From Escherichia phage UPWr_E1: a stretch of DNA of 64,000 bases. Of this stretch, positions 3,129-16,139 are shown piece after piece (positions within the stretch are counted from its first letter, which is position 1; each line of letters opens with the position of its first letter). The stretch is from the sequence record PP418985.1. One strand, written 5' to 3'. Under the pieces are notes generated by a model. The model searched no databases, was not told the origin of the DNA, and was given only the letters and a program-made list of their open reading frames with translations. A program made the translations under genes and the position numbers.

Positions 3129-3854
3129 ATGTTTGATAAAGAATATTTCGAAGAACTCCGCGCTATTGCGGCGTCCGACGACAAAGAAGCACAGAAAACA
3201 GCTAAAACAGAATTAGCTGACTACGCAAAACAATTTGATATCAAGGTCAAAAAGACGTTATCACTAGAGAACATGATCGAGTTCGTAGAAACCGAATTAA
3301 CTAAACTGGCTTCCGAAATGGAAGAAGAAACTCCGGCAGAAGGAACCAGTATTAACGATCTTATTCTGGCAGCAGATACCGCAGATGATAAAGTGGTATT
3401 CGACGAAGTTGATCCGTCTCTGGTTGAAGCAATGAAAGAACCCGAGATCGTCATTGAAGAAACAAAAGAAGAATCTCCAGCAGTTGAACCAGTGGTCGAA
3501 GAAGTTAAGTCAGTTGTTGAAGAAGCGCCGGAAGTTAAAGTGGAATCTCCGGTAGCCAACATTTTCTCCGACGAAGCAGAGCATCGTTCCCCAGCACATG
3601 ACACTGATTCATTTTGTGATCTTACTGGTTTCCGTCCGACCATTTGCTTGATCGGTGGCGGTCGTGGTTACTACTCCTGCCCGTGGTGGATTTTCGACTG
3701 GATTGTTAATACTCCAGATTGGAAGAAGTACCCAGAGCGTTTCCCGCACGCGTATGTACACGACACCCTCAAGTCACTGATCTATTATATCAAACGCGAT
3801 GGGTCTGTCAAGGTGCGAGAGACTAAACACAGCCAATTCCACACTCTTAAATAA
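3129..3854 (+). CDS. hypothetical protein with acidic E/V-rich centre and Cys/Trp-rich C-terminal domain; occupies T4 inh/segD position
   Basis: AGGAG RBS; 241 aa; synteny between uvsW and hoc; no motif recognised. Confidence 0.6.
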   Translation: MFDKEYFEELRAIAASDDKEAQKTAKTELADYAKQFDIKVKKTLSLENMIEFVETELTKLASEMEEETPAEGTSINDLILAADTADDKVVFDEVDPSLVEAMKEPEIVIEETKEESPAVEPVVEEVKSVVEEAPEVKVESPVANIFSDEAEHRSPAHDTDSFCDLTGFRPTICLIGGGRGYYSCPWWIFDWIVNTPDWKKYPERFPHAYVHDTLKSLIYYIKRDGSVKVRETKHSQFHTLK

Positions 3855-3932
3855 TAAGAGTGTAAAAGTTGTGAAATATTTGTTATGTTTTTAATTGTAG
3901 TTCCGTTATGCAATTAAAAAAGAGGATATTAC

Positions 3933-6476
3933 ATGTCTAACAAAATCAATGTATTACATCAAACAGAAGGTCCGGTTTATGGTTCCGTTGGTCGTCCACT
4001 TCTGTTAAAGATTGTTGTCAGTACAGCAGATTTTAAAGATTTTATAGCAGAATGGAAGCTGAACGGTGTAAATGTGCCAGCAGAACAAATTTCCGACGCG
4101 GATCAGTCTCTGTATATTGAGGAAATGCGAGAAAATCAATTTGGTACATATACATGTCACATTAAACTGAAAGACGAACCACAGGTCGGTGTAGATATTA
4201 AGCCTATTCTTGTACAGCGTAGATTTTTTATTGCACCGCAAGATCAGTCTCCGACGTATATTAAAAAACGAATCGGCGAAGAATTAACCCTATTCGCAAC
4301 ACCAGCAATTGAACTAGGTCAACACCCAGAGTTTCAATGGTATCGAAATCATATTCCGGTAGAACCAGAAAAAATCGAGGACAACCGAACCGTTCATATT
4401 GCCCGTGTTGGTCTTATTGATTTTGGCAATTATACGTGTCGTGTTACTGTCCGTGGTGAACCAGCATCACAATATTGGATTAATCCAATTATTGTAGAAA
4501 AGAATGATACCCCTCCTGTAGTGCATCTTAGCGAAGAATATCCTAGCTCTATTACAGTAGCAGAGGATTCAGCGGTACATCTCAATGTACTTGTTACATC
4601 AGATGATAAAGTATCGCCTATTGAGTATACGTGGATTCATAACGGTAGGATTGTTATCGAAGAAAACGGAAACTCTTTGGCAATTCCGCATATTCGAAAA
4701 GATCAGGAAGGTATCTGGCGTCTTGAGGTAAAACAAGGTGACACTACGGTGTATTCTAAAGATTGTCATATTGAGGTTGATAGTCAACCATTCTTTAGGA
4801 TCACACGTCAACCGCAAACTCTTAACGTGTCTGGCGGTGCTTTGGGTTTATTCAGCGTTGATTATAGAACAAACTATTCACCTGTAAAGATCCAGTGGTA
4901 TCGTAAAAAGAATACAGAACAGGAGTTTACACCAATTGTAGGTGAGACTAATAAAGATCTTCATATTACACCAGCTACTACTGAATTAAACCGAGCACGC
5001 TACAAAGCTCGTATCACGTATGGCACAGACCAATACAGAGATTCAGAAGAAGCTGAATTGCTAGTAGGTGAAGCATTAACTATTAGAATCACCAAACAAC
5101 CACAAGCTCTACAAAACGTCCGAGTTTCTTCCTCACAGACGATCACTTGTGAAGCTGAAACAAACTATGAACATTATCGCTTAGATTATCAGTGGTATAA
5201 AGATAACGAATTAATGCCAGGCAAAACATCTAATGTATTGCACTTCTCATCAATCAAAAAGACAGATGAGGGGCAATATAAGTGTATTGCATCAATGGGT
5301 ATTTCTGGTCATCGAATTACCGCAGAATCATCACCAGCACAGGTGACAGTAGACAATTCAAAGGCATCACTGACTATCACTAAACAGCCAACTGGTGCAA
5401 CAATTCGCACTGGTGGGTCGTGGTCTATTTCGGTCGAAGCAACATCAAACGATGCACTACCGATTCGCTATCGCTGGTTTAAAGACGGCGAAGATCTATT
5501 CCCACAAGGCGTTGAACAAAAAAACGTTTACGGTGAAGACCATGCTCAACCTGATTCGACTGGTGTATATACTTGTCGCGTTTCGGTTGGTTTTGGTGAT
5601 CACCGAGCGTCTCAAATGTCACATCCAGCAAGGGTGCTAATTAGCGATAATGTGGAAATTGTGCCGAATGACTTACAGGTCACCGCACATCCTCATGATA
5701 ATGACGTTAAGTATAATCAGCGTGTTATCTTAACAGCAAGATCTCAAAATAGCATCGGGTTAAAACCACATATTCAATGGAAAAAGGATGGTGTTGCTAT
5801 TCCGGGTGCAAATTCAGAGACTTTAGTCATTGAGCACGCGAAACCATTGGATGCAGGGGTTTACACCGCAGATATTACCGCAGCAGAAAAAACGGTAACA
5901 ACCAATCCGGCTACAGTTACTGTAGCAGAGCACAGCAATATTAATATCTTAAAACATCCAGTGGATGTGGTTGCAAAAGAAGGACAAACCACCGACATTG
6001 TATTGGAAGCTCATGCGGAACATTCTGACGGTGAAACCGAAGTTAGTTATCAGTGGCATAAAATTAAAGATGGCGTAGACACTGAAATAAGAGATGCAAC
6101 AAATAAAACTTTAGTTATCCCTCATGCACAGATCAGCAAGCAAGCTCATCAAGCGACCTATTACGCCGAGATAAAAGAAGAGAATGGACACGTTAAACAT
6201 AGCGAAAAAGTTCGAGTGGTGTTTACTACCGCGAAATTAAAACGCTATGTTCACCCGATCCCGTGGCGACGTACATCCTTCCAGTATCAAGGCTATTGGG
6301 TTATGGATGAGATTGATCGCTGTAATCGTGAAGGGCTTAACTGGCTTGAGGACTTTACGCACACCAAATATCCAGAAGAGATCGAAACTATTGCTGCATC
6401 ATTGCATCATTATTCAAATACTCATGTATTAGAATCTCGTAATGGTTATCTGGTTGATGGTACTCAACTATTTTAA
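3933..6476 (+). CDS. hoc: Hoc-like capsid decoration protein with ~7-8 Ig-like repeats and a shared C-terminal domain
   Basis: AGAGGA RBS; repeated W-Y/F-[KR]...G-x-Y-x-C Ig-like motifs (GNYTCRVTV, GQYKCIAS, GVYTCRVSV); C-terminal RYVHPIPWRRTSF...ESRNGY; hoc position. Confidence 0.7.
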   Translation: MSNKINVLHQTEGPVYGSVGRPLLLKIVVSTADFKDFIAEWKLNGVNVPAEQISDADQSLYIEEMRENQFGTYTCHIKLKDEPQVGVDIKPILVQRRFFIAPQDQSPTYIKKRIGEELTLFATPAIELGQHPEFQWYRNHIPVEPEKIEDNRTVHIARVGLIDFGNYTCRVTVRGEPASQYWINPIIVEKNDTPPVVHLSEEYPSSITVAEDSAVHLNVLVTSDDKVSPIEYTWIHNGRIVIEENGNSLAIPHIRKDQEGIWRLEVKQGDTTVYSKDCHIEVDSQPFFRITRQPQTLNVSGGALGLFSVDYRTNYSPVKIQWYRKKNTEQEFTPIVGETNKDLHITPATTELNRARYKARITYGTDQYRDSEEAELLVGEALTIRITKQPQALQNVRVSSSQTITCEAETNYEHYRLDYQWYKDNELMPGKTSNVLHFSSIKKTDEGQYKCIASMGISGHRITAESSPAQVTVDNSKASLTITKQPTGATIRTGGSWSISVEATSNDALPIRYRWFKDGEDLFPQGVEQKNVYGEDHAQPDSTGVYTCRVSVGFGDHRASQMSHPARVLISDNVEIVPNDLQVTAHPHDNDVKYNQRVILTARSQNSIGLKPHIQWKKDGVAIPGANSETLVIEHAKPLDAGVYTADITAAEKTVTTNPATVTVAEHSNINILKHPVDVVAKEGQTTDIVLEAHAEHSDGETEVSYQWHKIKDGVDTEIRDATNKTLVIPHAQISKQAHQATYYAEIKEENGHVKHSEKVRVVFTTAKLKRYVHPIPWRRTSFQYQGYWVMDEIDRCNREGLNWLEDFTHTKYPEEIETIAASLHHYSNTHVLESRNGYLVDGTQLF

Positions 6477-7948: not shown

Positions 7949-8146
7949 ATGAATGAGATTGTACGATTGATCAAAGAAACACCAATCGAGATGTATTTTC
8001 TGGCTTTGGTTGCAACAATGGTCTATCAGCTAGTCGCATGTCATGTATGGAAATCAGAAAATGCGTTTATCCGGTTTTTTGGTACTGTCATGATCCAGTT
8101 TCCGGTACTGATCACTATCCTGTTAATCGTCAATGAGGCGAAGTAA
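7949..8146 (+). CDS. small hydrophobic membrane protein
   Basis: GAGGTGA RBS; 65 aa with hydrophobic core. Confidence 0.5.
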   Translation: MNEIVRLIKETPIEMYFLALVATMVYQLVACHVWKSENAFIRFFGTVMIQFPVLITILLIVNEAK

Positions 8147-8421
8147 TGGACAAGAAAACAGCGTTAATGGTTTACATGCTACGCGAAGACCACGGTCTTA
8201 ATTTTGTTGATATTGCTAAAAAGATTGGCGGGTTCAGCGGACAAGATGCGGCTAAGGCATGGTTGATGGTAAAAGATGCACGAGAGGCTTACGCCAACCG
8301 TGAAAAGGTTGTTTATCGTAAACACCACATCAACAAAAAATTTAAAAATAAAGTTCAAAAACGTGTTGACAAGCCAAATAACACTGTTATAATGGACGCA
8401 TTCAAACGGGCAATGTCCTGA
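8146..8421 (+). CDS. basic hypothetical protein (possible HTH)
   Basis: ATGA start/stop overlap with upstream ORF; 91 aa, Lys-rich C-terminus. Confidence 0.5.
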   Translation: MDKKTALMVYMLREDHGLNFVDIAKKIGGFSGQDAAKAWLMVKDAREAYANREKVVYRKHHINKKFKNKVQKRVDKPNNTVIMDAFKRAMS

Positions 8422-8467: not shown

Positions 8468-8905
8468 ATGAAATTCCGCAAAAACCACGTAGCAATGAAA
8501 AAAGCAATGTTTGAAGCATTCAAAGCAGTTGATCAGGGCGGTGTTACTCTGATTGAGCAAATTAATGTTGATGTTTGGCAGTCTCCGGCGATCACTTGCT
8601 CACGTCTGGCGACGGCTGGTCTTCTGAATGTTCACAGCTCTACAGCATACGACGAAGCATTGCAAGTTATTAAGGCTTTCGCTGGCGACGTTACCAGCAA
8701 GTGGGTCTATGAGAATAAAGGTGAAATTGCGGTTGCTCACGTAGGCAACAATATCCAGATGGAAATCAAGATTAAGGAAGGGTCTAAACGCAATCAGATG
8801 CTTGTTCGCTTCCAGCCATACAAAACTAACGTAGTGCCGGATGATCTGGTCATCTCTAAGAGTAATGTTACCATTCGCCGAAATCAGATCGTTATCAACA
8901 AATAA
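8468..8905 (+). CDS. hypothetical protein
   Basis: AGAGGTGA RBS; 145 aa; followed by a strong terminator. Confidence 0.6.
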   Translation: MKFRKNHVAMKKAMFEAFKAVDQGGVTLIEQINVDVWQSPAITCSRLATAGLLNVHSSTAYDEALQVIKAFAGDVTSKWVYENKGEIAVAHVGNNIQMEIKIKEGSKRNQMLVRFQPYKTNVVPDDLVISKSNVTIRRNQIVINK

Positions 8906-8914
8906 TTAACATTA

Positions 8915-8938
8915 GCCGTCCTTCGGGGCGGCTTTTTT
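8915..8938 (+). terminator. rho-independent terminator
   Basis: GCCGTCC-TTCG-GGGCGGC followed by TTTTTTGT. Confidence 0.75.
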
Positions 8939-8992
8939 GTATATATCATTAACATAATTTTAGTTTACATATGCACATTATTAATACAGTTT

Positions 8993-9030
8993 GATTAAAT
9001 TATGATCAAAACGAAGAAAGATCTTTAGAA
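8993..9030 (+). repeat. intergenic repeat copy A (GATTAAATTATGATCAAAACGAAGAAAGATCTTTAGAA)
   Basis: 5' 25 nt repeated at 9142-9166; 3' part CAAAACGAAGAAAGATCTTTAGAA identical to 46843-46866. Confidence 0.7.
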
Positions 9031-9141
9031 CATAGAAAATGTATCTTTGATTAATTATTAATCACCACATATTGTAACGCAAATGTTATACTCCGTAGGA
9101 GTTCGCGAAGCGATATCCTTTTGTGTAGTTTTTACATATAT

Positions 9142-9197
9142 GATTAAATTATGATCAAAACGAAGACTTATCTTATAGAATAATAAAAATTTGTTTC
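9142..9197 (+). repeat. intergenic repeat copy B
   Basis: GATTAAATTATGATCAAAACGAAGA ... TAGAATAATAAAAATTTGTTTCG; 3' 23 nt identical to 46862-46884. Confidence 0.7.
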
Positions 9198-9319
9198 GAA
9201 CATTTATTAATCAATTACTAGAAGTGTTTTATTGCTCGCTGTGCTCGCTTCCGCTACGCGGATACTTGTATTTGTTATTAACTTGTAGTATGATATTGCT
9301 TTCTATGGAGGAAAATATT

Positions 9320-9907
9320 ATGTTTGACCAGTTACAAGATCTATTTGGAGTAAAACCACTTCGTAGATGTGCTTTAATCGGCTCTAGAAAAGCGCCTAGC
9401 GACATTTTGATAATGGCTAGTACCATTGGGAGGGTATTGTCAGAAAATCGCGTTGTAGCGCATTCTGGAGGGGCTTACGGTATGGACAATGCTTTCATGA
9501 AGTATTACGATCCAGATTATAGAAAAATTTTCATTCCAAATTGGAAGTTTTATGACCACAAGCATAACGGTCATGATGTGATTGCATGGCAAACCTTAGA
9601 ACAAAAGAATCTGGCGATGGATGAATTAGAACACGTTTATGATAATCCTCGTTCTATACCGTTATACATGCAAAATTTATTTTCTAGAAATGTTGCTCAA
9701 GTCTTAGGTGAGACACTTGATGATCCTGTAGATTGTGTGTTATTCTGGGCGAAAGAAGTTAATGGAATCGTTTCGGGAGGAACTCGAATTGCTGTTTATG
9801 TTGCCCGTAGACATGGGATACCATGTTTTAACTTATATCATCAAGAAAATAGATCCGCCGTCGAAAAAATCTTGGGCGGATCTGATTTGTCTTGGTTAGA
9901 TATTTAG
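9320..9907 (+). CDS. SLOG-superfamily (DprA/LOG-like) Rossmann-fold protein
   Basis: GGAGGA RBS then ATG 9320; GSRKAP ... HSGGAYGMDNAF resembles the DprA GSR/SGxAxGID motifs; ORF-track start 9191 has no RBS. Confidence 0.55.
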   Translation: MFDQLQDLFGVKPLRRCALIGSRKAPSDILIMASTIGRVLSENRVVAHSGGAYGMDNAFMKYYDPDYRKIFIPNWKFYDHKHNGHDVIAWQTLEQKNLAMDELEHVYDNPRSIPLYMQNLFSRNVAQVLGETLDDPVDCVLFWAKEVNGIVSGGTRIAVYVARRHGIPCFNLYHQENRSAVEKILGGSDLSWLDI

Positions 9908-11149
9908 TTAAGCGTTGTCAATCTCAAGTGGTGGCAGTTCGATTCCTAAAATGTAGGACATTTCAGAGCGTCCAGCCATTTTACCCCAATCGTCACCCTT
10001 GATGATCTGGTGTTCTTCCTGATCAACTTTTGATGTATATGGGTTGACAGAGAGTGAATAACGATTCATAATAGCTACATGATGCTGGAAGCTATTAGGA
10101 TCAATTACGCTCTTATACGCGCCAGCGCCATCGGCTTCTGTGTATGGGGAGTAGAACAGCGAACCTACGCTCTCCATATCACCGATCATGTGCTTACAGC
10201 CAACTAGCATATAATCGAACGGCGTTACCGTGTCTGCGTACACTTCCAGACCGCAACGTAGACGTCCTTCGCTTAGAGCGTTGTCGGTTTCTTCCATCCA
10301 TCCGGTAGACTGCAACAGACCAACTACGCGAGAAGATGCTAAAACGTATGTGCCAGCAAAGGAGGAAGTACGCAACATTTGATTGCTCATTTCGCAAGCA
10401 TAGCGGTAAAGTTCACGAGCTTGTTTTGGTGCATCCTGAACGCCAACGAGAGAAAGTACACCATCAGTGGTGATTCCTTTAATTTTATAGCGAGTTGATA
10501 CAGTGATCAACTTCTGCATAATATCTTTGTTGATCTCTTCGGAAGCGACAGTAGCCAGAAGGTCGATCACAGAATTTTCAGAATTGATTTGGCTTGCCTC
10601 AAGATCCTGCATTAATTCAGTGGTGAACGAGGTTTTCAGTTTACGAGAACCTACATTAACTTGCCACTTGTCAAACTGCATAGAGGTAGACGCAATTTCG
10701 GTGTTTTTATCTTCAAAGTATTCTACCGATGCACAATCGCTATAGAAACGAATTTTGTTTGTCATTACGCCTTTAAAGATCGCAGCTTCTGGAGTTGCGG
10801 AATCTTCGCTAACTCGACCAGCAACAACAGCTTGATAAACTACGTCGCCAGATTTAAACAGATCACCGATCTTGTATTCTTTTTCCTGTGAAAATTCTTC
10901 GATCTCTGTACGATCACCAGCCGCGCCACCGTAGGTTGCAGCAGTTCGGAAAGTCATCTGACCATCACGATTAAGATAACGTAGGCCGTACAATGCAGAT
11001 ACTGGTTGATCCGTTGGCTGGATTGCTACCAGATCAGAGAAAATCAGGTTGTTTACCGCGCGAGTTAATGATAATAGTTGCGGTCGCGCTGTCTGGTTAG
11101 CTACTGAGGAAGTAGATTCCCGCAACAGTTCAGTAAAAATATGAGTCAT
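9908..11149 (-). CDS. 24: head vertex protein gp24
   Basis: gp23-paralog fold signature; start MTHIF; late promoter TATAAATA 38 nt upstream; ORF-track start 11227 is an extension across the promoter. Confidence 0.9.
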   Translation of the reverse strand: MTHIFTELLRESTSSVANQTARPQLLSLTRAVNNLIFSDLVAIQPTDQPVSALYGLRYLNRDGQMTFRTAATYGGAAGDRTEIEEFSQEKEYKIGDLFKSGDVVYQAVVAGRVSEDSATPEAAIFKGVMTNKIRFYSDCASVEYFEDKNTEIASTSMQFDKWQVNVGSRKLKTSFTTELMQDLEASQINSENSVIDLLATVASEEINKDIMQKLITVSTRYKIKGITTDGVLSLVGVQDAPKQARELYRYACEMSNQMLRTSSFAGTYVLASSRVVGLLQSTGWMEETDNALSEGRLRCGLEVYADTVTPFDYMLVGCKHMIGDMESVGSLFYSPYTEADGAGAYKSVIDPNSFQHHVAIMNRYSLSVNPYTSKVDQEEHQIIKGDDWGKMAGRSEMSYILGIELPPLEIDNA

Positions 11150-11186
11150 GTTTATGAATCCTGTATTTGCCTTAATGGATATATCA

Positions 11187-11194
11187 TATTTATA
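11187..11194 (-). promoter_or_regulatory. T4-type late promoter TATAAATA (gene 24)
   Basis: tatttata on plus strand. Confidence 0.6.
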
Positions 11195-11205
11195 CAAAAA
11201 GAAAA

Positions 11206-11225
11206 GGGAATCCCGAAGGATTCCC
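11206..11225 (-). terminator. rho-independent terminator after the fiber-like module
   Basis: GGGAATCC-TTCG-GGATTCCC followed by TTTTCTTTTT on minus strand. Confidence 0.65.
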
Positions 11226-11233
11226 AAATAAAA

Positions 11234-11396: not shown

Positions 11397-12329
11397 TTAT
11401 GGAGAATTTGGGGTTAATTCAGGGAACAGCGTGCCAAAACCAAAATTACCGCTAGCGTCACGCTGGAATGTCATAACAAGGTCGACATAAACCGGATCTG
11501 TAAATCTATCAAATCTATCCGACCCAATATCAACCATGAACGCTAATTTAATCTCATTAGAATTTGAGATCGCAGCGTCAGCACATGCACCAAAAATTAC
11601 CTGAGTATCTTTTGCCGTATATGCATTGACCTGTATGTTGGTTGGTTTCATTACATCGTTAGACAAACCAGATAGTTCTACTCGTCCATTAAATGACGCC
11701 AGACTTTGACCACCGCCTAGATAATGAATATGACCACCTTGTGAAGATTGTGTCCAGTCCATTAGCATAACCTTAAATCTAGCCTCAAAACGCCCTTCCA
11801 CGTAATATCGACCAGTTTCAAAGTTTTGTCTAATTGGTGTCCATGTGATGTGTGGTTTTCCGCTTACAGGATCGACAAGAGTCACACCTACGGCTGGCTT
11901 AATACTGACACTATCAAATGAACGTGATAGCCAATTCCATGTTTGATTGTCTAGGTTTGGCAATTGTGGAATATTCAATCCATCTAATCGGCTGTGTGCT
12001 CGTGCTGCTTCCGATTCTGCGGTAGTCGCTTTAGTCAGTGCATCAGTTGCTTTGCTCATGGATTGCCCTGCCGTTCGATCGGCAACATCAGCAGTTGATT
12101 TTGCAATCTCTGCCGTTCGATGTGCTGAACTTGCTGTTTCTGTTATTACGTCATCGCACGCAATAACAAAATCAATTACAGGATCGATCAATTGAGTGTT
12201 GATTGAGTTGGAAATTCGTTCAACATCACTTTCCATTAGAGCATTAGATTCATTTCCTGTGAAATGAGTAATTTCACCTTGAACAAAATCATTTTGCAAC
12301 TTGCTGATCTTTGCTTTAATATCGGTCAT
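11397..12329 (-). CDS. fiber-like protein with Ala/Thr-rich helical N-terminal region and globular C-terminal domain
   Basis: GGGGTGA RBS; 310 aa; TAEIAKSTADVADRTAGQS...ATDALTKATTAESEAARAH resembles side-tail-fiber stalks; not in the T4 23-24 interval. Confidence 0.7.
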   Translation of the reverse strand: MTDIKAKISKLQNDFVQGEITHFTGNESNALMESDVERISNSINTQLIDPVIDFVIACDDVITETASSAHRTAEIAKSTADVADRTAGQSMSKATDALTKATTAESEAARAHSRLDGLNIPQLPNLDNQTWNWLSRSFDSVSIKPAVGVTLVDPVSGKPHITWTPIRQNFETGRYYVEGRFEARFKVMLMDWTQSSQGGHIHYLGGGQSLASFNGRVELSGLSNDVMKPTNIQVNAYTAKDTQVIFGACADAAISNSNEIKLAFMVDIGSDRFDRFTDPVYVDLVMTFQRDASGNFGFGTLFPELTPNSP

Positions 12330-12344
12330 GAATCACCCCGCTAA

Positions 12345-14063
12345 TTATTGTGCTTGCTCTGGAAGTGCTTGTATATTTTCTATAGTAGCACCCCATTTAA
12401 CGGCATTTAAACGAGCTTTGTGCATATCGTCTTCTCCGACTATTGCCGCAAAACCCTTTTTAGCGTGGAAATTCGCCCATGTGTTATATGCTAGTGCACC
12501 TACGCGTTTTGCTGTGTCGTGTTCAACTTCATCAACCATCAGCATTGTGCGGAAAGGTGCAAATGCTACATCTGGGTTATCGTCTTGTGTCCATGAACCA
12601 CCATTAAACGACACCTGCCACCTGAACATCTCACCAGACGGAATTTGATTAATTCTCAACTTTAGAGATCTTGTTTTCTGGTTTTTCTGAGTTACGTCTA
12701 GTGGAACCTGATATCTAGCCGCTTGTCGTTCTCTACCATCATTCATCCTATGCCATGCGGTAACAACAAGCATAACCGGAATTGTGTTTGATGTTTTAAT
12801 AAAACTAACATCAACTAAAAGTTCCATATCATAGCTACCAGATTTAGGCGCAACCCACCAATGGTCGGCATCAGCTTGTCGATCTGGCTCTTTAATCTGT
12901 GGTGTGCATCCATAGTTATCATGAATGACATACTTCCACGGAATGTAAAAAGCACCACCGCCAGTTCCTGGATTTGTAACTTCGAGTAGATTTTGTGCAG
13001 TGGTAAACACGCTTGACACGCGAGGGAAAGCATAAATGGTAGCACCACCAGTGTGATCGCTGATCTGTAACCATTCGGTCCATCGATCAGTTCTCTTTGT
13101 ATAGGAACGGTGATACATTACGCCATCAATGCTTGTTGCGATCTGCAATACATGATCTTTACATGCATGAACATCTACAGAACCATGTGTTTGTGTTCCA
13201 TTTGGACGGTTTGCCGACCCCTCAAAGTAACAGAAACGGCCTTGTTTAGTCAAGGTGTTTAGGTCTAGCGTTTCTGGCGAAATTTCCGGTAGACGTTTAC
13301 CCAGACTGGTTAACATCGCCTCCTGATCACCATTTAAACCACCGCCACCACTTCCTTCCCCGCTTTGAGAGTTCCACTCACGCCATGCACCATTGTGTCG
13401 GATGCGAGAGTAAACACCACCATCAATAGAACGGACCACTTGAAGAATGCTACCATCGACGACATATACATCTGCGGACCCCTTATTCGCCATCATTGGA
13501 GGTTTGCCATAGGTTGCATCACCTACCGGATAGCGTCCGGGTGATGTGGTTACATCCAGATTGTTAATTGGATTCGTCGTAGTCCATTTTACCTCAATTG
13601 CAGATAGACGCTGCGCAACGTTCGCTAATACTTCTGGTACTGGAAATACAAGAGATTCCTGTGTTCCGTCTGAGTACGTGACTTCTAGAGTCCAGTTGCG
13701 ATCGTCCTCGGACAAATTCGCTTCGATTCTAGCAATGCCACGACCATTTTCGCCCTTCTCACCAGGAATACCCTGTTCACCCTGAATAACCCAGGTCATA
13801 TCGACCCATTTTGATTTATCGTAGGGAGATTGTGCTGTTTTACCAGTCCATAATTGGAGTTTTTCGCCACAAACAATAATTGTTTTTAGTCTTTCCAATT
13901 CTGGAAAATGTTCGGTAAAATATTCATCCCTAGCTTCTTCATTTTCGAAACGGTGAGTATTTTTAATTCCGCTAGGTACGTTAGTTCCGATCTGAATACC
14001 ACCACCAGAACAACCACCACTCACGGAACCAGCATTAATGATAGCTTGTGGATTTAGCTTCAT
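12345..14063 (-). CDS. fiber-like protein with collagen-like Gly-X-Y run and two knob-like repeats
   Basis: GGGGGT RBS then ATG 14063; GEQGIPGEKGENGRG; two repeats of ...DG-x-x-Y-x-R...W-x-E-W (SIDGGVYSRIRHNGAWREW, SIDGVMYHRSYTKRTDRWTEW) typical of pyocin/tail-fiber knob domains. Confidence 0.75.
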   Translation of the reverse strand: MKLNPQAIINAGSVSGGCSGGGIQIGTNVPSGIKNTHRFENEEARDEYFTEHFPELERLKTIIVCGEKLQLWTGKTAQSPYDKSKWVDMTWVIQGEQGIPGEKGENGRGIARIEANLSEDDRNWTLEVTYSDGTQESLVFPVPEVLANVAQRLSAIEVKWTTTNPINNLDVTTSPGRYPVGDATYGKPPMMANKGSADVYVVDGSILQVVRSIDGGVYSRIRHNGAWREWNSQSGEGSGGGGLNGDQEAMLTSLGKRLPEISPETLDLNTLTKQGRFCYFEGSANRPNGTQTHGSVDVHACKDHVLQIATSIDGVMYHRSYTKRTDRWTEWLQISDHTGGATIYAFPRVSSVFTTAQNLLEVTNPGTGGGAFYIPWKYVIHDNYGCTPQIKEPDRQADADHWWVAPKSGSYDMELLVDVSFIKTSNTIPVMLVVTAWHRMNDGRERQAARYQVPLDVTQKNQKTRSLKLRINQIPSGEMFRWQVSFNGGSWTQDDNPDVAFAPFRTMLMVDEVEHDTAKRVGALAYNTWANFHAKKGFAAIVGEDDMHKARLNAVKWGATIENIQALPEQAQ

Positions 14064-14070
14064 ATAATAA

Positions 14071-14379
14071 TTACCCCCGTTTAGCAAGATACACGGTTAC
14101 AGTAGAATCATTGGAAACAGATTTTACTTTTGCCCTAATAAATGACCATAATGTTTCAAACGCTCCACCATCAGTTGCATATTCATTACCATCAGCTTTC
14201 AATTCTGAAATAGTGAACCAACCTTTGCCATCTAAGGAACCTTCTAACGAGGCTTCCGCAATGACTTTTTGCCCTTCCCGTGCACCCTCTACGGTCATCT
14301 GTACTGTCATGTGCGTACTATGAACGCAGTTTACCGACGCGGAAACGGCTGGAGTTTTGGTCTTTATAAGTGTGTGCAT
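14071..14379 (-). CDS. hypothetical protein (102 aa), first gene of the fiber-like module
   Basis: AAGGGGAG RBS; preceded by late promoter TATAAATA and the gp23 terminator. Confidence 0.6.
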   Translation of the reverse strand: MHTLIKTKTPAVSASVNCVHSTHMTVQMTVEGAREGQKVIAEASLEGSLDGKGWFTISELKADGNEYATDGGAFETLWSFIRAKVKSVSNDSTVTVYLAKRG

Positions 14380-14540: not shown

Positions 14541-16139
14541 TTAGCAACCTTTAACCCATACACGGCGGAAGTATGCGTTTTTACCTACGCTGTCTTTGCT
14601 CAACATACCGGAGGTGATGCGAGCGGACGGTGCCTGGGTTTTGCTGTCTGCAAACGGGTTAATACCGATGCCGTAGCGAGTCTTGAAGCCCAGAACCGGG
14701 TGGAAAGACTGCGGATCGGTTGCACGCAGCGGAGTCAGAGCAACATACGGCGCATAGTAGATACCAGCATCCATTTCGTTGTCGCCTTTGTAGCCTACGG
14801 TGAAGTAGTCCTGACGAGCATACTGGTCGATGAATACTTTGTACTTACCAGCCAGAACACCAGCGAAAACAGCTTTAGTGGTGTCGGTATTCAGACCTTT
14901 TGCAGCACCCTGCATAGCAACACTGATACCCTGATCAGCAGAAGCCAGAATGTTTACAACGTTACGGGAAGCGATAACAAAGTTACCAGCACCGCGACCA
15001 GTCTGACGAGCGATTTCAGCAGCTTCTTTGTCGATCTGGTAGATCAGAGATTTGAAGGATTCACCAGCCCAACGAGCACCGCGAGTATCGATCGGGTCTT
15101 GCAGGTCAAATACACCAGCTTTAGAACCAACGGTCTGAGTCATACCAGTCTTACCAACCTGTGCGGTAAAGTTGATAACGTCAACGATTTCACGGTTGAT
15201 TTCCAGCAGAACTTCGTTAGCCAGGATAGCATTCAGTTCAGCGTCAGCATCCATACCGTGTACAGCACGCAGATCCTGCGCAACTTCGATAGAATAACGA
15301 GCTTTCAGTTGGCGAGATTTCGCTTCAACAACCTGTTTGTCAATACGCATCGACATTTCAGCCCACGGGTTATTGCTGGAACCGTTAAAGCCTTCCTGAA
15401 TTTCGGCAATGGAAGTAGCCATACCGAAAGCGATTTCAGCCAGTTTACCTTCTTCCATCAGCTTCATGACCACTTCATCTTCGGATTCATCACCTGATTT
15501 CTGCGGAGTTACTGCGCTAGAAGTTACGTTTTGCAGATATGCAATACCAGTGTCTGCAAACGTGTGATGTACAATGTCTCCCGGTTGGATCTGGGTAGAT
15601 AATGCCAGTTTAGCGAATGCAGTACCAGTAGGAGAACCAGTCGTTGCATTTTTTGCTGCCAGAGAGCTATGGAACACATCTGGCGCATACATCGGGTGGA
15701 ATGCTTCACGAACATTTTTAGGATTACCACCAGCCAGCGGGTCTGGACCGTATACAGAACGGATTGCAAAGATCTGGCTAGTCGGGGTGCTCATAGGCTG
15801 AACGCCACAAATATCAAATGCAATCAGGTTAGGAATAGCACGGCGAACCATACCGATAACAGCCGGACCTACGTTAGTGATTGCACCGCTAGTCTGACCT
15901 GCCGCAATCTGGGATGCGTCGTAACCGTGGTCGCCAGCAACTTCGGCTTCGGCGATAAAACCACCGAATGCTTCAACAACTTTTTCATCCTTATAGATCG
16001 GATCTACAGCAAAATCCGCTTCCTGAGATTCCAGAATTTTAGCAACCAGTTTCTGCTTAGACGCAGTTGCGATTTCCGGCAGTTTTTCGTTCTCCAGCAG
16101 CGGGGACCATTTTTCCATCAGTTCTTTGGTAGTTTTCAT
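14541..16139 (-). CDS. 23: major capsid protein gp23
   Basis: 532 aa; long identical blocks with recalled T4 gp23 (RRAIPNLIAFDICGVQPM, IDKQVVEAKSRQLKA, GARWAGESFK, YFTVGYKG...DAGIYYAPYVALTPLR). Confidence 0.95.
   Translation of the reverse strand: MKTTKELMEKWSPLLENEKLPEIATASKQKLVAKILESQEADFAVDPIYKDEKVVEAFGGFIAEAEVAGDHGYDASQIAAGQTSGAITNVGPAVIGMVRRAIPNLIAFDICGVQPMSTPTSQIFAIRSVYGPDPLAGGNPKNVREAFHPMYAPDVFHSSLAAKNATTGSPTGTAFAKLALSTQIQPGDIVHHTFADTGIAYLQNVTSSAVTPQKSGDESEDEVVMKLMEEGKLAEIAFGMATSIAEIQEGFNGSSNNPWAEMSMRIDKQVVEAKSRQLKARYSIEVAQDLRAVHGMDADAELNAILANEVLLEINREIVDVINFTAQVGKTGMTQTVGSKAGVFDLQDPIDTRGARWAGESFKSLIYQIDKEAAEIARQTGRGAGNFVIASRNVVNILASADQGISVAMQGAAKGLNTDTTKAVFAGVLAGKYKVFIDQYARQDYFTVGYKGDNEMDAGIYYAPYVALTPLRATDPQSFHPVLGFKTRYGIGINPFADSKTQAPSARITSGMLSKDSVGKNAYFRRVWVKGC

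What the first reader, a model, noticed from the sequence alone, without database searches (positions are those of the whole stretch)
9320..9907. SLOG-superfamily (DprA/LOG-like) protein at the position of T4 rnlB/24.x genes
GSRKAP ... HSGGAYGMDNAF resembles the Rossmann nucleotide-binding core of DprA/Smf and LOG-family proteins. In a phage this could be a recombination mediator or a nucleotide-processing enzyme. It sits just downstream of the repeated 42-bp element.
Basis: inference. Interest (0 to 1): 0.4.

Follow-up and report, generated by a model that had tools for sequence, protein, structure and literature searches.

The report
Stand-alone DprA-like SLOG phage protein
This is a real, well-conserved gene of a T4-like (Krischvirus) coliphage. 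It encodes a small nucleotide/DNA-binding domain most like that of the bacterial DNA-uptake protein DprA; databases already list the family, and nobody has tested what it does.

Summary
Window 9320-9907 (+) is a 195-aa gene with a GGAGG ribosome-binding site, under strong purifying selection (dN/dS 0.04-0.11). It is 99.5% identical to Phi1 ORF164, which RefSeq names "DprA-like DNA recombination-mediator protein" (PHROG 768, E=2e-60).

It is not a canonical DprA. It scores below the Pfam and TIGRFAM cut-offs and has no SAM or C-terminal winged-helix domain. The LOG catalytic Glu is absent.

The family is large (4,315 clusters at 50% identity; 1,428 phage records) and mostly stand-alone. It is recurrently fused or adjacent to NADAR, DUF4326, RecJ and ligase/SSB/helicase genes.

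Best reading (about 0.4): an ssDNA-binding accessory module for phage DNA repair or protection. Main rival (about 0.3): a binder or processor of ADP-ribose-derived small molecules.

The feature is already annotated and its function is untested. Interest is low to moderate.

The parts
9320..9907 (+). Coding sequence of the 195-aa stand-alone DprA-like SLOG protein (ortholog of Phi1 ORF164 / phi1p164)
   Evidence: ORF; PHROG 768, E=2e-60; RefSeq annotation; AlphaFold pLDDT 94.1; fold searches; dN/dS 0.04-0.11
9309..9313 (+). Shine-Dalgarno sequence GGAGG, 6 nt upstream of the ATG
   Evidence: read directly from the sequence
9380..9388 (+). Motif 1, G21-S22-R23, after strand 1. R23 is the equivalent of HpDprA R52 / ShosA R139 (ssDNA-binding Arg)
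   Evidence: invariant in A2; 93-100% conserved in 266 relatives; aligned to the HpDprA GTR motif; role of the Arg from PMC12961424
9464..9487 (+). Motif 2, S49-G50-G51-A52-x-G54-x-D56: Gly-rich loop plus the SLOG 'GxD/E' motif after strand 2
   Evidence: aligned to the HpDprA SGGALGVD motif
9686..9700 (+). Motif 3, R123-N124-x-x-Q127 (DprA 'RNR' motif). R123 is the equivalent of HpDprA R143 / ShosA R234 / E. coli Smf R211
   Evidence: 97-99% conserved; motif and spacing comparison with E. coli Smf and the residue numbers. The equivalence is an inference from motif alignment
9776..9793 (+). Motif 4, G153-G154-T155-x-x-A158 (DprA 'SGSxxTA'). There is no acidic residue where LOG has the catalytic Glu of PGGxGTxxE
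   Evidence: comparison with Smf and with the YAcAr protein Seurat gp80 'PGGAGTMD'
8914..8933 (+). Intrinsic terminator after the upstream gene ORF165. It marks the SLOG gene as a separate transcription unit
   Evidence: 8-bp stem, 6 GC pairs, T-run
8992..9213 (+). AT-rich (29% GC) spacer holding two direct copies (8992-9064, 9141-9213) of a 73-nt element. Probably a duplicated promoter region for the SLOG gene. No late-promoter TATAAATA is present
   Evidence: found only here in the window and in Phi1-type genomes; no Rfam family, no unusual fold; GC. The promoter function is inferred, not shown

Best explanation
The gene encodes a stand-alone Rossmann-like SLOG domain of the DprA branch (PHROG 768). 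It is made from its own promoter region, which does not look like a late promoter.

I propose that it uses the DprA-type pocket to hold a nucleotide of single-stranded nucleic acid, as DprA and ShosA do. The pocket is built from the GSR loop, the SGGAxGxD loop, the RN helix and the GGT loop.

I propose that it serves as a non-essential accessory factor that binds or marks phage ssDNA during repair or protection from host attack. It would work alongside enzymes that act on damaged DNA: NADAR-type DNA de-ADP-ribosylase (gp30.3/AdfN), ligases, RecJ-type nucleases.

It is not a canonical RecA-loading DprA and not a LOG-type phosphoribohydrolase.

Shown: fold, family, motif conservation, distribution, fusions. 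Inferred: ssDNA binding, timing of expression and biological role.

For: 2. All four DprA motifs are 93-100% conserved in 266 relatives. R23 and R123 match the two arginines whose mutation abolishes ssDNA binding and antitoxin function in ShosA: R139 and R234, equal to HpDprA R52 and R143 (spacing checked on E. coli Smf).

3. Fusion partners mostly act on DNA, often ssDNA. They are NADAR (5 proteins), RecJ DHH-DHHA1-OB (1), a weak AlkB-like 2OG-Fe oxygenase match, and giant polyvalent-type proteins. Every phage NADAR tested so far removes ADP-ribose from guanine in DNA.

4. Neighbours in unrelated phages are DNA-handling genes: SSB next door (flopper); NAD-dependent DNA ligase A/B, D5 and helicase (T5-like phages); ligase and helicase (PAK_P5); RNA ligase 2 (T4-like phages).

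5. NADAR lies within the fetched flanks (at most 7 kb) in 2 viral and 4 bacterial-genome loci. Krischvirus Phi1 itself carries gene 30.3 (NADAR) next to ligase gene 30.

6. Family median pI is 7.85.
Against: - No binding experiment exists for any member of this family.
- The conserved residues line the general SLOG ligand pocket. They would be conserved equally for a small nucleotide ligand.
- The third DprA ssDNA-binding Arg (HpDprA R170) corresponds to hydrophobic V159 here.
- The window protein is slightly acidic (pI 6.4).
- Invariant polar residues that DprA lacks (Q127, T155) hint at a specific ligand or at chemistry.
- Fusions to DUF4326 and to other SLOG domains (YAcAr, LDcluster4) fit the NAD/ADP-ribose small-molecule network proposed by Iyer et al. 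2022.
- Most neighbours in 44 lineages are unannotated small early genes with no conserved partner.
- T4-like phages already have UvsY, gp32 and UvsX.
Confidence: 0.4

Rival explanations
1. Small-molecule reading (Iyer, Burroughs, Anantharaman & Aravind 2022). The viral SLOG domain binds, sequesters or cleaves a soluble nucleotide or ADP-ribose-derived molecule made by host immunity. Candidates are cADPR isomers, ADPr derivatives, or AMP-like substrates cleaved at the N-glycosidic bond. The protein would blunt NAD/ADPr-based defence signalling or toxicity.
For: - The domain is fused to NADAR (5), to DUF4326 (4), and sits with YAcAr and LDcluster4 SLOG domains in 1,475- and 1,488-aa proteins. 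These are the architectures on which the published prediction rests.
- It lies among small early, host-takeover-type genes in N4-like, jumbo and rV5-like phages.
- Its distribution is patchy and accessory, and in T4-like phages it lies in a stretch whose gene content differs between genera.
- Invariant polar pocket residues D56, N124, Q127 and T155.
- Knock-out of a different phage SLOG, DruSM1 ORF83 (YAcAr family), sensitises the phage to Avs type III. That protein is predicted to bind AMP.
- One bacterial locus has Gad1 nearby.
- The phage carries several ADP-ribosyltransferases: alt, modB, ORF183.
Against: - LOG, ThsA-SLOG and YpsA are all more distant than DprA in sequence and structure.
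- The LOG catalytic Glu (PGGxGTxxE) has no counterpart (GGTRIA). The acidic residue present in ORF83/gp80 (D114) is also missing here.
- ORF83 belongs to another family: PF10686 for its Seurat counterpart gp80, and the profile of this family finds nothing in the Seurat genome.
- No activity has been shown for any viral SLOG.
Confidence: 0.3
2. Canonical annotation. The protein is a DprA-type recombination mediator that loads a recombinase (host RecA or phage UvsX) onto ssDNA.
For: - Database names (RefSeq, PHROG 768).
- DprA is the nearest relative.
- Iyer et al. 2021 suggested that DprA/Smf copies in jumbo phages could serve as an extra ssDNA-binding protein for recombination.
Against: - It scores below every curated DprA threshold: Pfam 22.3 against 29.6 bits, TIGR00732 14.4 against 191 bits.
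- It has no SAM domain and no C-terminal winged-helix domain, since its 195 aa form one domain.
- The phage already has UvsY, the dedicated UvsX mediator, about 5 kb upstream.
- Gene contexts are not recombination operons.
- The related phage SLOG ORF83 lacks the DprA dimerisation and RecA-binding residues, and AlphaFold predicts no RecA complex for it. This was not tested for the present family.
Confidence: 0.1
3. Orphan-antitoxin or decoy reading. The protein substitutes for the DprA-like antitoxins of PRTase toxin-antitoxin defence systems (ShosA, PsyrA) during infection, in the way phage AdfN mimics DarG1.
For: - The only PADLOC hits are PsyrA (E=4e-5) and ShosA (E=4e-4), seen in 8 of 8 family members tested.
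- ShosA neutralises ShosT without binding it, and needs its ssDNA-binding arginines to do so.
- There is a precedent for orphan antitoxins in T4-like phages.
Against: - The hits are weak and cover only about 45 N-terminal residues, the generic DprA motifs.
- ShosA needs its SAM domain, dimerisation and RecA binding, and none of these is evident here.
- The family is far more widespread than these defence systems would seem to require.
Confidence: 0.05
4. RNA ligase, as homologs are named in some GenBank records (Pantoea phage Phynn, phage Skers).
For: Record names only. Homologs sit next to RNA ligase 2 in several T4-like phages.
Against: No hit to any RNA or DNA ligase family at E<=10. The fold is SLOG, not nucleotidyltransferase. 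The name is most simply explained as carried over from the neighbouring or positionally equivalent rnlB gene.
Confidence: 0.01

Closest known systems
DprA/Smf DNA-processing protein A (Pfam PF02481; H. pylori DprA 4LJK/4LJR, R. palustris 3MAJ, S. pneumoniae 3UQZ)
   Different: It has only one domain, with no SAM and no C-terminal winged helix. It scores below the curated thresholds. The third ssDNA-binding Arg is not conserved. It has a roughly 9-residue hairpin insertion before motif 4, and family-specific invariant Q127 and T155. It is phage-borne and has no competence context. Dimerisation and RecA binding are unknown.
ShosA and PsyrA, DprA-like antitoxins of the ShosTA and PsyrTA defence systems (PDB 8ZVA)
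   Different: ShosA has a SAM domain, an extra C-terminal helix, an obligate dimer and RecA binding, and is paired with a PRTase toxin. None of these is seen here.
Viral SLOG domains surveyed by Iyer et al. 2021/2022 (PMC7824862, PMC9503650), and the PHROG 768 family
   Same: This protein is a member of PHROG 768. The same architectures were found here as in those surveys (stand-alone, or fused to NADAR and DUF4326), with the same bias to large virulent phages.
DruSM1 ORF83 / Seurat gp80 (YAcAr, PF10686), the only phage SLOG with a reported phenotype (anti-Avs type III)
   Same: It is a small stand-alone phage SLOG and shares the GxR, GxAxGxD, RN and GGxGT-type motifs. Both families occur fused to DUF4326, and both occur in the same giant proteins.
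   Different: It is a different family: about 130 aa, PF10686 at E=5e-18, with no detectable profile similarity to this one. Its nearest structures are LOG enzymes, and it keeps an acidic residue (D114) that is absent here.
LOG / PpnN phosphoribohydrolases
   Different: The PGGxGTxxE catalytic motif is not present, and there is no Pfam Lysine_decarbox hit.

Membership tests
SLOG superfamily | Rossmannoid three-layer alpha/beta fold with a parallel sheet, closest to known SLOG structures | tested here: met
SLOG superfamily | Gly-rich loop after strand 1 and the 'GxD/E' motif after strand 2 | tested here: met
   G21-S22-R23 and G54-x-D56 are invariant in A2 and 93-100% conserved in 266 relatives.
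PHROG 768 (DprA-like DNA recombination-mediator protein) | Full-length match to the family profile | tested here: met
   E=2e-60, 204.6 bits, residues 15-187 on profile positions 4-181 of 191.
DprA/Smf (Pfam PF02481, TIGR00732) | Score above the curated family threshold over the whole DprA domain | tested here: not met
   PF02481: 22.3 bits against a gathering score of 29.6, covering only residues 15-60. TIGR00732: 14.4 against 191 bits.
DprA/Smf | ssDNA-binding arginines (HpDprA R52, R143, R170) | tested here: inconclusive
   R23 and R123 are 99% conserved and correspond to R52 and R143. The R170 equivalent is V159. The equivalence rests on motif alignment, not on a superposed complex.
DprA/Smf | Accessory domains (N-terminal SAM and/or C-terminal DML1-like winged helix) | tested here: not met
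   The 195 aa form a single domain. No other Pfam domain is detected.
DprA/Smf | Homodimerisation and RecA interaction | not testable with these tools
   No multimer prediction and no coordinates were available. EVADES found these residues missing in the related ORF83, but that protein belongs to another family.
LOG (cytokinin riboside 5'-monophosphate phosphoribohydrolase) | PGGxGTxxE motif with the catalytic Glu; Pfam Lysine_decarbox match | tested here: not met
   The corresponding segment is S-G-G-T-R-I-A-V, with no acidic residue, and the family consensus is GGTxxA. There is no Pfam hit at E<=10. LOG structures rank below DprA.
YAcAr / YspA (PF10686) and YpsA (PF06908) | Match to the family profile | tested here: not met
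ShosA / PsyrA antitoxins | Full-length profile match and pairing with a PRTase toxin gene | tested here: not met
   PADLOC hits score 18-21 bits over about 45 residues only. No toxin-like neighbour is present: the neighbours are gene 24 and ORF165.
RNA ligase 2 (rnlB) | Nucleotidyltransferase domain (PF09414) plus the Rnl2 C-terminal domain | tested here: not met
   No hit. In other T4-like phages these domains are found in the neighbouring gene, not in the homolog itself.

The most novel reading that the evidence does not exclude
The DprA-like SLOG domain is the DNA-recognition partner of base-adduct repair enzymes, or itself a new enzyme of that kind. In fusions it would deliver NADAR, and possibly DUF4326, AlkB-like and RecJ modules, to ADP-ribosylated or otherwise damaged ssDNA. 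As a stand-alone protein in Krischvirus it would cooperate with gp30.3 (AdfN) and ligase to overcome DNA-modifying or DNA-nicking defences such as DarTG or Avs nucleases. That would define a widespread, previously unrecognised class of counter-defence cofactor.
Probability: 0.15. Interest if true: 0.6.

Novelty: already known. Interest (0 to 1): 0.3.

Why it matters
The family is one of the more widespread phage accessory genes with no experimental function. It appears in about 2.8% of deposited phage genomes and in thousands of metagenomic clusters.

The name 'recombination mediator' is spread automatically but rests on a partial motif match. Some records even call homologs 'RNA ligase'.

It would be useful to know whether the protein binds ssDNA, with a repair or protection role linked to NADAR and ligases, or binds a small ADP-ribose-type ligand, with an immune-signal role. 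That would assign a function to a large block of phage 'dark matter'. It would also clarify how SLOG domains are used on the viral side of NAD/ADP-ribose conflicts. For this particular window it adds nothing beyond existing annotation.

Tried and rejected
1. hhalign of the family profile against single sequences (E. coli Smf, Seurat gp80) was uninformative: probabilities of 5% or less, because the templates were single sequences. Motif and spacing comparison was used instead.

2. Neighbour enrichment was tested by Pfam scans of the genes at +-2 in 44 independent viral lineages. Outside T4-like synteny (gp23/gp24 family, Rnl2) no partner recurs. I therefore did not run the planned distant-gene control.

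3. I tested whether the one phage SLOG with a phenotype (DruSM1 ORF83, anti-Avs III) belongs to this family. Its counterpart in the related phage Seurat is gp80: the residues quoted for ORF83 (R89, N90, T112, D114) fall at the same numbers in gp80. gp80 is YAcAr, PF10686, and the profile of this family finds nothing in the Seurat genome. The ORF83 sequence itself was not available, and the phenotype cannot be transferred.

4. A riboswitch or structured RNA in the 414-nt upstream spacer was rejected. There is no Rfam match near threshold and the fold z-score is -0.4.

5. A late promoter was rejected: no TATAAATA occurs in the spacer (read). The generic sigma-70 scan found no strong site there either, so the timing of expression stays inferred.

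6. The search for related loci on bacterial genomes failed with A2. It was repeated with A4. The family is rare in bacterial genomes, and where present it lies in mobile-element contexts.

7. The supplementary tables of Iyer et al. 2022 are not held, and Burroughs et al. 2015 is not held. The published clade assignment could therefore not be checked.

8. pI and charge as a proxy for DNA binding were weak and ambiguous.

Full report
**1. What is there**

Window 9320-9907 (+) is an ATG-to-TAG ORF of 195 codons. GGAGG lies 6 nt upstream of the ATG.

The window is a Krischvirus, an RB49/Phi1/JSE-type member of the Straboviridae. The 2-kb stretch around the gene is 95-99% identical to 56 phage records. 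The protein is 99.5% identical to Phi1 ORF164, which RefSeq names "DprA-like DNA recombination-mediator protein".

Against four Krischvirus orthologs dN/dS is 0.04-0.11, so the gene is functional.

Gene 24.3 (DUF2774) and ORF165 lie upstream, followed by a strong terminator at 8914-8933. Next comes a 414-nt spacer of 29% GC, then this gene, and then gene 24 converging on it stop-to-stop.

In other T4-like genera (Citrobacter phage CfP1; KMI10, a Slopekvirus) the homolog sits immediately after RNA ligase 2, i.e. rnlB. Four T4-like lineages show this arrangement in the neighbour scan. This explains why some records mislabel homologs as "RNA ligase". The protein has no ligase domain.

**2. Fold and family**

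- Pfam gives one sub-threshold hit: DprA PF02481, 22.3 bits against a gathering score of 29.6, residues 15-60 only.
- NCBIfam dprA scores 14 against 191 bits.
- PHROG 768 matches over the full length at E=2e-60.
- An AlphaFold2 model built on 33 homologs has pLDDT 94.1 and pTM 0.89.
- In Foldseek the top nine hits are all HpDprA (E=2e-5 to 4e-4), then ShosA and RpDprA at 1.4e-3, MCP at 5e-3, and LOG at 1.5e-2 or worse.
- The family profile against PDB sequences finds HpDprA at E=8e-5. The best LOG hit is at 0.096.

**3. Conserved residues**

In 33 homologs the invariant residues are G21 S22 R23, S49 G50 A52 G54 D56, R123 N124 Q127, and G153 G154 T155 A158. In 266 family members the same positions are 93-100% conserved.

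These are the four DprA motifs. E. coli Smf reads GSR, SGLARGID, FPRRNR and SGSLVTAR.

The ShosA paper reports that HpDprA R52, R143 and R170 bind ssDNA. It also reports that ShosA R139 and R234 are essential for ssDNA binding and antitoxin activity, while R261 is dispensable.

By motif and spacing, Smf has R116, R211 and R238. The 95 and 27 gaps match ShosA exactly, and the 27 gap also matches HpDprA (R143-R170). The equivalents here are R23, R123 and V159. The two essential arginines are kept and the dispensable one is not. This equivalence is my inference from motif alignment.

The LOG signature PGGxGTxxE has no counterpart. The segment reads SGGTRIAV, with no acidic residue.

**4. Size, spread and architecture of the family**

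- An exhaustive profile search finds 4,315 clusters at 50% identity with E<=1e-3, and 2,731 with E<=1e-10. Nearly all are stand-alone proteins of about 180 aa.
- Most have no precomputed Pfam domain.
- tblastn finds a relative in 1,428 of 50,697 phage records. These include Straboviridae, Demerecviridae (T5-like), Schitoviridae (N4-like), Chaseviridae, rV5-like and phi92-like phages, Pakpunavirus and Nankokuvirus, and jumbo phages.
- Pattern scans found 291 loci in IMG/VR but only 36 in 185,579 bacterial species genomes. The bacterial loci lie next to integrase, methylase, UvrD, NADAR and, once, Gad1, which is a mobile-element context.

The multidomain members carry:
- NADAR, in P0070, P0148, P0170, P0040 and P0042. 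The last two also contain YAcAr and LDcluster4 SLOG domains.
- DUF4326, in P0160, P0202, P0231 and L060.
- RecJ DHH-DHHA1-OB, in P0161.
- A weak AlkB-like 2OG-Fe(II) oxygenase match, in L094.
- Very large polyvalent-type proteins, L051 and L057.

A local NADAR profile finds a NADAR gene within the fetched flanks of 2 viral and 4 bacterial loci. Phi1 itself encodes gene 30.3 (NADAR) next to DNA ligase gene 30. It also encodes alt, modB and a third ADP-ribosyltransferase.

**5. Gene neighbourhoods**

Pfam scans of the +-2 neighbours in 44 independent viral lineages show no conserved partner outside T4-like synteny. Most neighbours are small unannotated early-region genes.

Individual annotated genomes do place the gene in DNA-handling modules:
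- directly before SSB in phage flopper;
- abutting NAD-dependent DNA ligase A/B, D5 and helicase in two T5-like genera;
- between ATP-dependent ligase and helicase in PAK_P5.

These cases are suggestive but not statistically compelling.

**6. Literature**

The Aravind group has already surveyed viral SLOG domains.
- In 2021 they suggested that DprA/Smf copies in jumbo phages could act as an extra ssDNA binder.
- In 2022 they proposed that viral SLOGs, fused to Macro, NADAR and DUF4326, sense or cleave ADP-ribose-derived immune signals. They stated that these domains remain experimentally uncharacterised.

Every phage NADAR tested (T4 gp30.3 = AdfN and two others) removes ADP-ribose from guanine in DNA and defeats DarTG1.

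The only phage SLOG with a phenotype is DruSM1 ORF83. Its knock-out plates worse on Avs type III, and EVADES predicts AMP binding for it. Its Seurat counterpart gp80 has the same residue numbering (R89, N90, T112, D114) and is a YAcAr protein of 130 aa, PF10686 at E=5e-18. The profile of this family finds nothing in the Seurat genome, and hhalign gives no match to gp80. That phenotype therefore cannot be transferred to the present family.

**7. Interpretation**

*Shown:* a real gene; a SLOG fold; DprA as the nearest branch; all DprA pocket motifs retained; no LOG catalytic Glu; failure of DprA family thresholds and absence of DprA's extra domains; a very large, mainly phage-borne family; recurrent links to NADAR and DUF4326; occasional links to RecJ, ligase, SSB and helicase.

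*Inferred:* the molecular activity.

I favour ssDNA or nucleotide-in-DNA binding, with the protein acting as an accessory repair or protection factor (about 0.4). The residues that define ssDNA binding in DprA and ShosA are the ones conserved here. Most fusion partners act on DNA: NADAR on ADP-ribosylated bases, RecJ on ssDNA ends, and AlkB-like enzymes on ssDNA lesions.

The main rival (about 0.3) is the published small-molecule model, i.e. binding or cleavage of ADP-ribose-type signals. It explains the DUF4326 and multi-SLOG architectures and the early-gene context equally well. The present data do not exclude it, because the conserved residues line the generic SLOG ligand pocket.

A canonical RecA or UvsX loader (about 0.1), an orphan antitoxin for ShosTA or PsyrTA (about 0.05) and an RNA ligase (about 0.01) are less likely.

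**8. Verdict**

The feature is already annotated in the reference genome of this genus and catalogued as PHROG 768, so it is not new. What remains open is its function, which is open for the whole family.

Interest is low to moderate. It would rise if the NADAR-coupled DNA-repair reading proved true.

Noticed in passing
window 11397-14087 (- strand): Two ORFs of 310 and 580 aa lie between gene 24/ORF162 and the major capsid gene 23 (14541-16139). The 580-aa ORF has a collagen-like Gly-X-Y run, GEQGIPGEKGENGRG. Phi1 has only a 45-aa ORF161.1 at this place, and PHROG 20809 matches the last ~40 residues of the 310-aa ORF; that this PHROG corresponds to Phi1 ORF161.1 is inferred from its length (45) and position, not tested. 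This is an insertion/deletion polymorphism of about 2.7 kb inside the head-gene cluster. Both proteins are of unknown function.
   Followed up: partly
window 8992-9064 and 9141-9213: Two direct copies of a 73-nt element sit in the AT-rich spacer upstream of the SLOG gene. They are 73% identical, share the exact 26-nt core TGATTAAATTATGATCAAAACGAAGA and are spaced 149 nt apart. The element is conserved in Phi1-type genomes and absent from the rest of the window and from the other 94 kb of Phi1. There is no Rfam match and no unusual RNA fold. It is probably a duplicated promoter region.
   Followed up: partly
window 8468-8905 (+), 7949-8146 (+), 8146-8421 (+): The upstream genes ORF165 (PHROG 15652), ORF167 (PHROG 16558) and 24.3 (DUF2774 / PHROG 1566) have no known function. 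ORF165 ends in a strong intrinsic terminator at 8914-8933.
   Followed up: partly
L016 (Citrobacter phage CfP1) 2938-7275; L097 (Klebsiella phage KMI10) 3446-8340: In these T4-like phages the SLOG homolog lies in a block made of a sigma-70 decoy gene, RNA ligase 2, an optional homing endonuclease, the SLOG gene, three small ORFs, and nicotinamide phosphoribosyltransferase (NAMPT). An NAD-salvage gene is thus about 1.5 kb downstream.
   Followed up: no
L011 (Vibrio phage phi 3) 3816-5528; L014 (Proteus phage PM135) 3983-6710: In two T5-like genera the SLOG homolog is wedged against the split NAD-dependent DNA ligase genes: between 'subunit A' and 'subunit B' in phi 3, and directly upstream of subunit A in PM135.
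   Followed up: no
L057 2-9631; L051 4319-8128; L094 4643-8983 (IMG/VR contigs): The domain is embedded in very large proteins: more than 3,209 aa (running off the locus), 1,269 aa and 1,446 aa. They have almost no other recognisable Pfam domains, only weak PD-(D/E)XK and AlkB-like 2OG-Fe(II) matches. They are possibly polyvalent injected proteins.
   Followed up: partly
GenBank records of Pantoea phage Phynn (P0007) and Escherichia phage vB_EcoM_Skers: Homologs of this SLOG protein are annotated as 'RNA ligase' or 'putative RNA ligase'. This is almost certainly a positional annotation error.
   Followed up: yes
window 9908-11227 (- strand): The mechanical ORF for gene 24 starts at a TTG (439 aa). 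Phi1 annotates 413 aa (1,242 nt), so the true start is probably the internal ATG near 11148.
   Followed up: no
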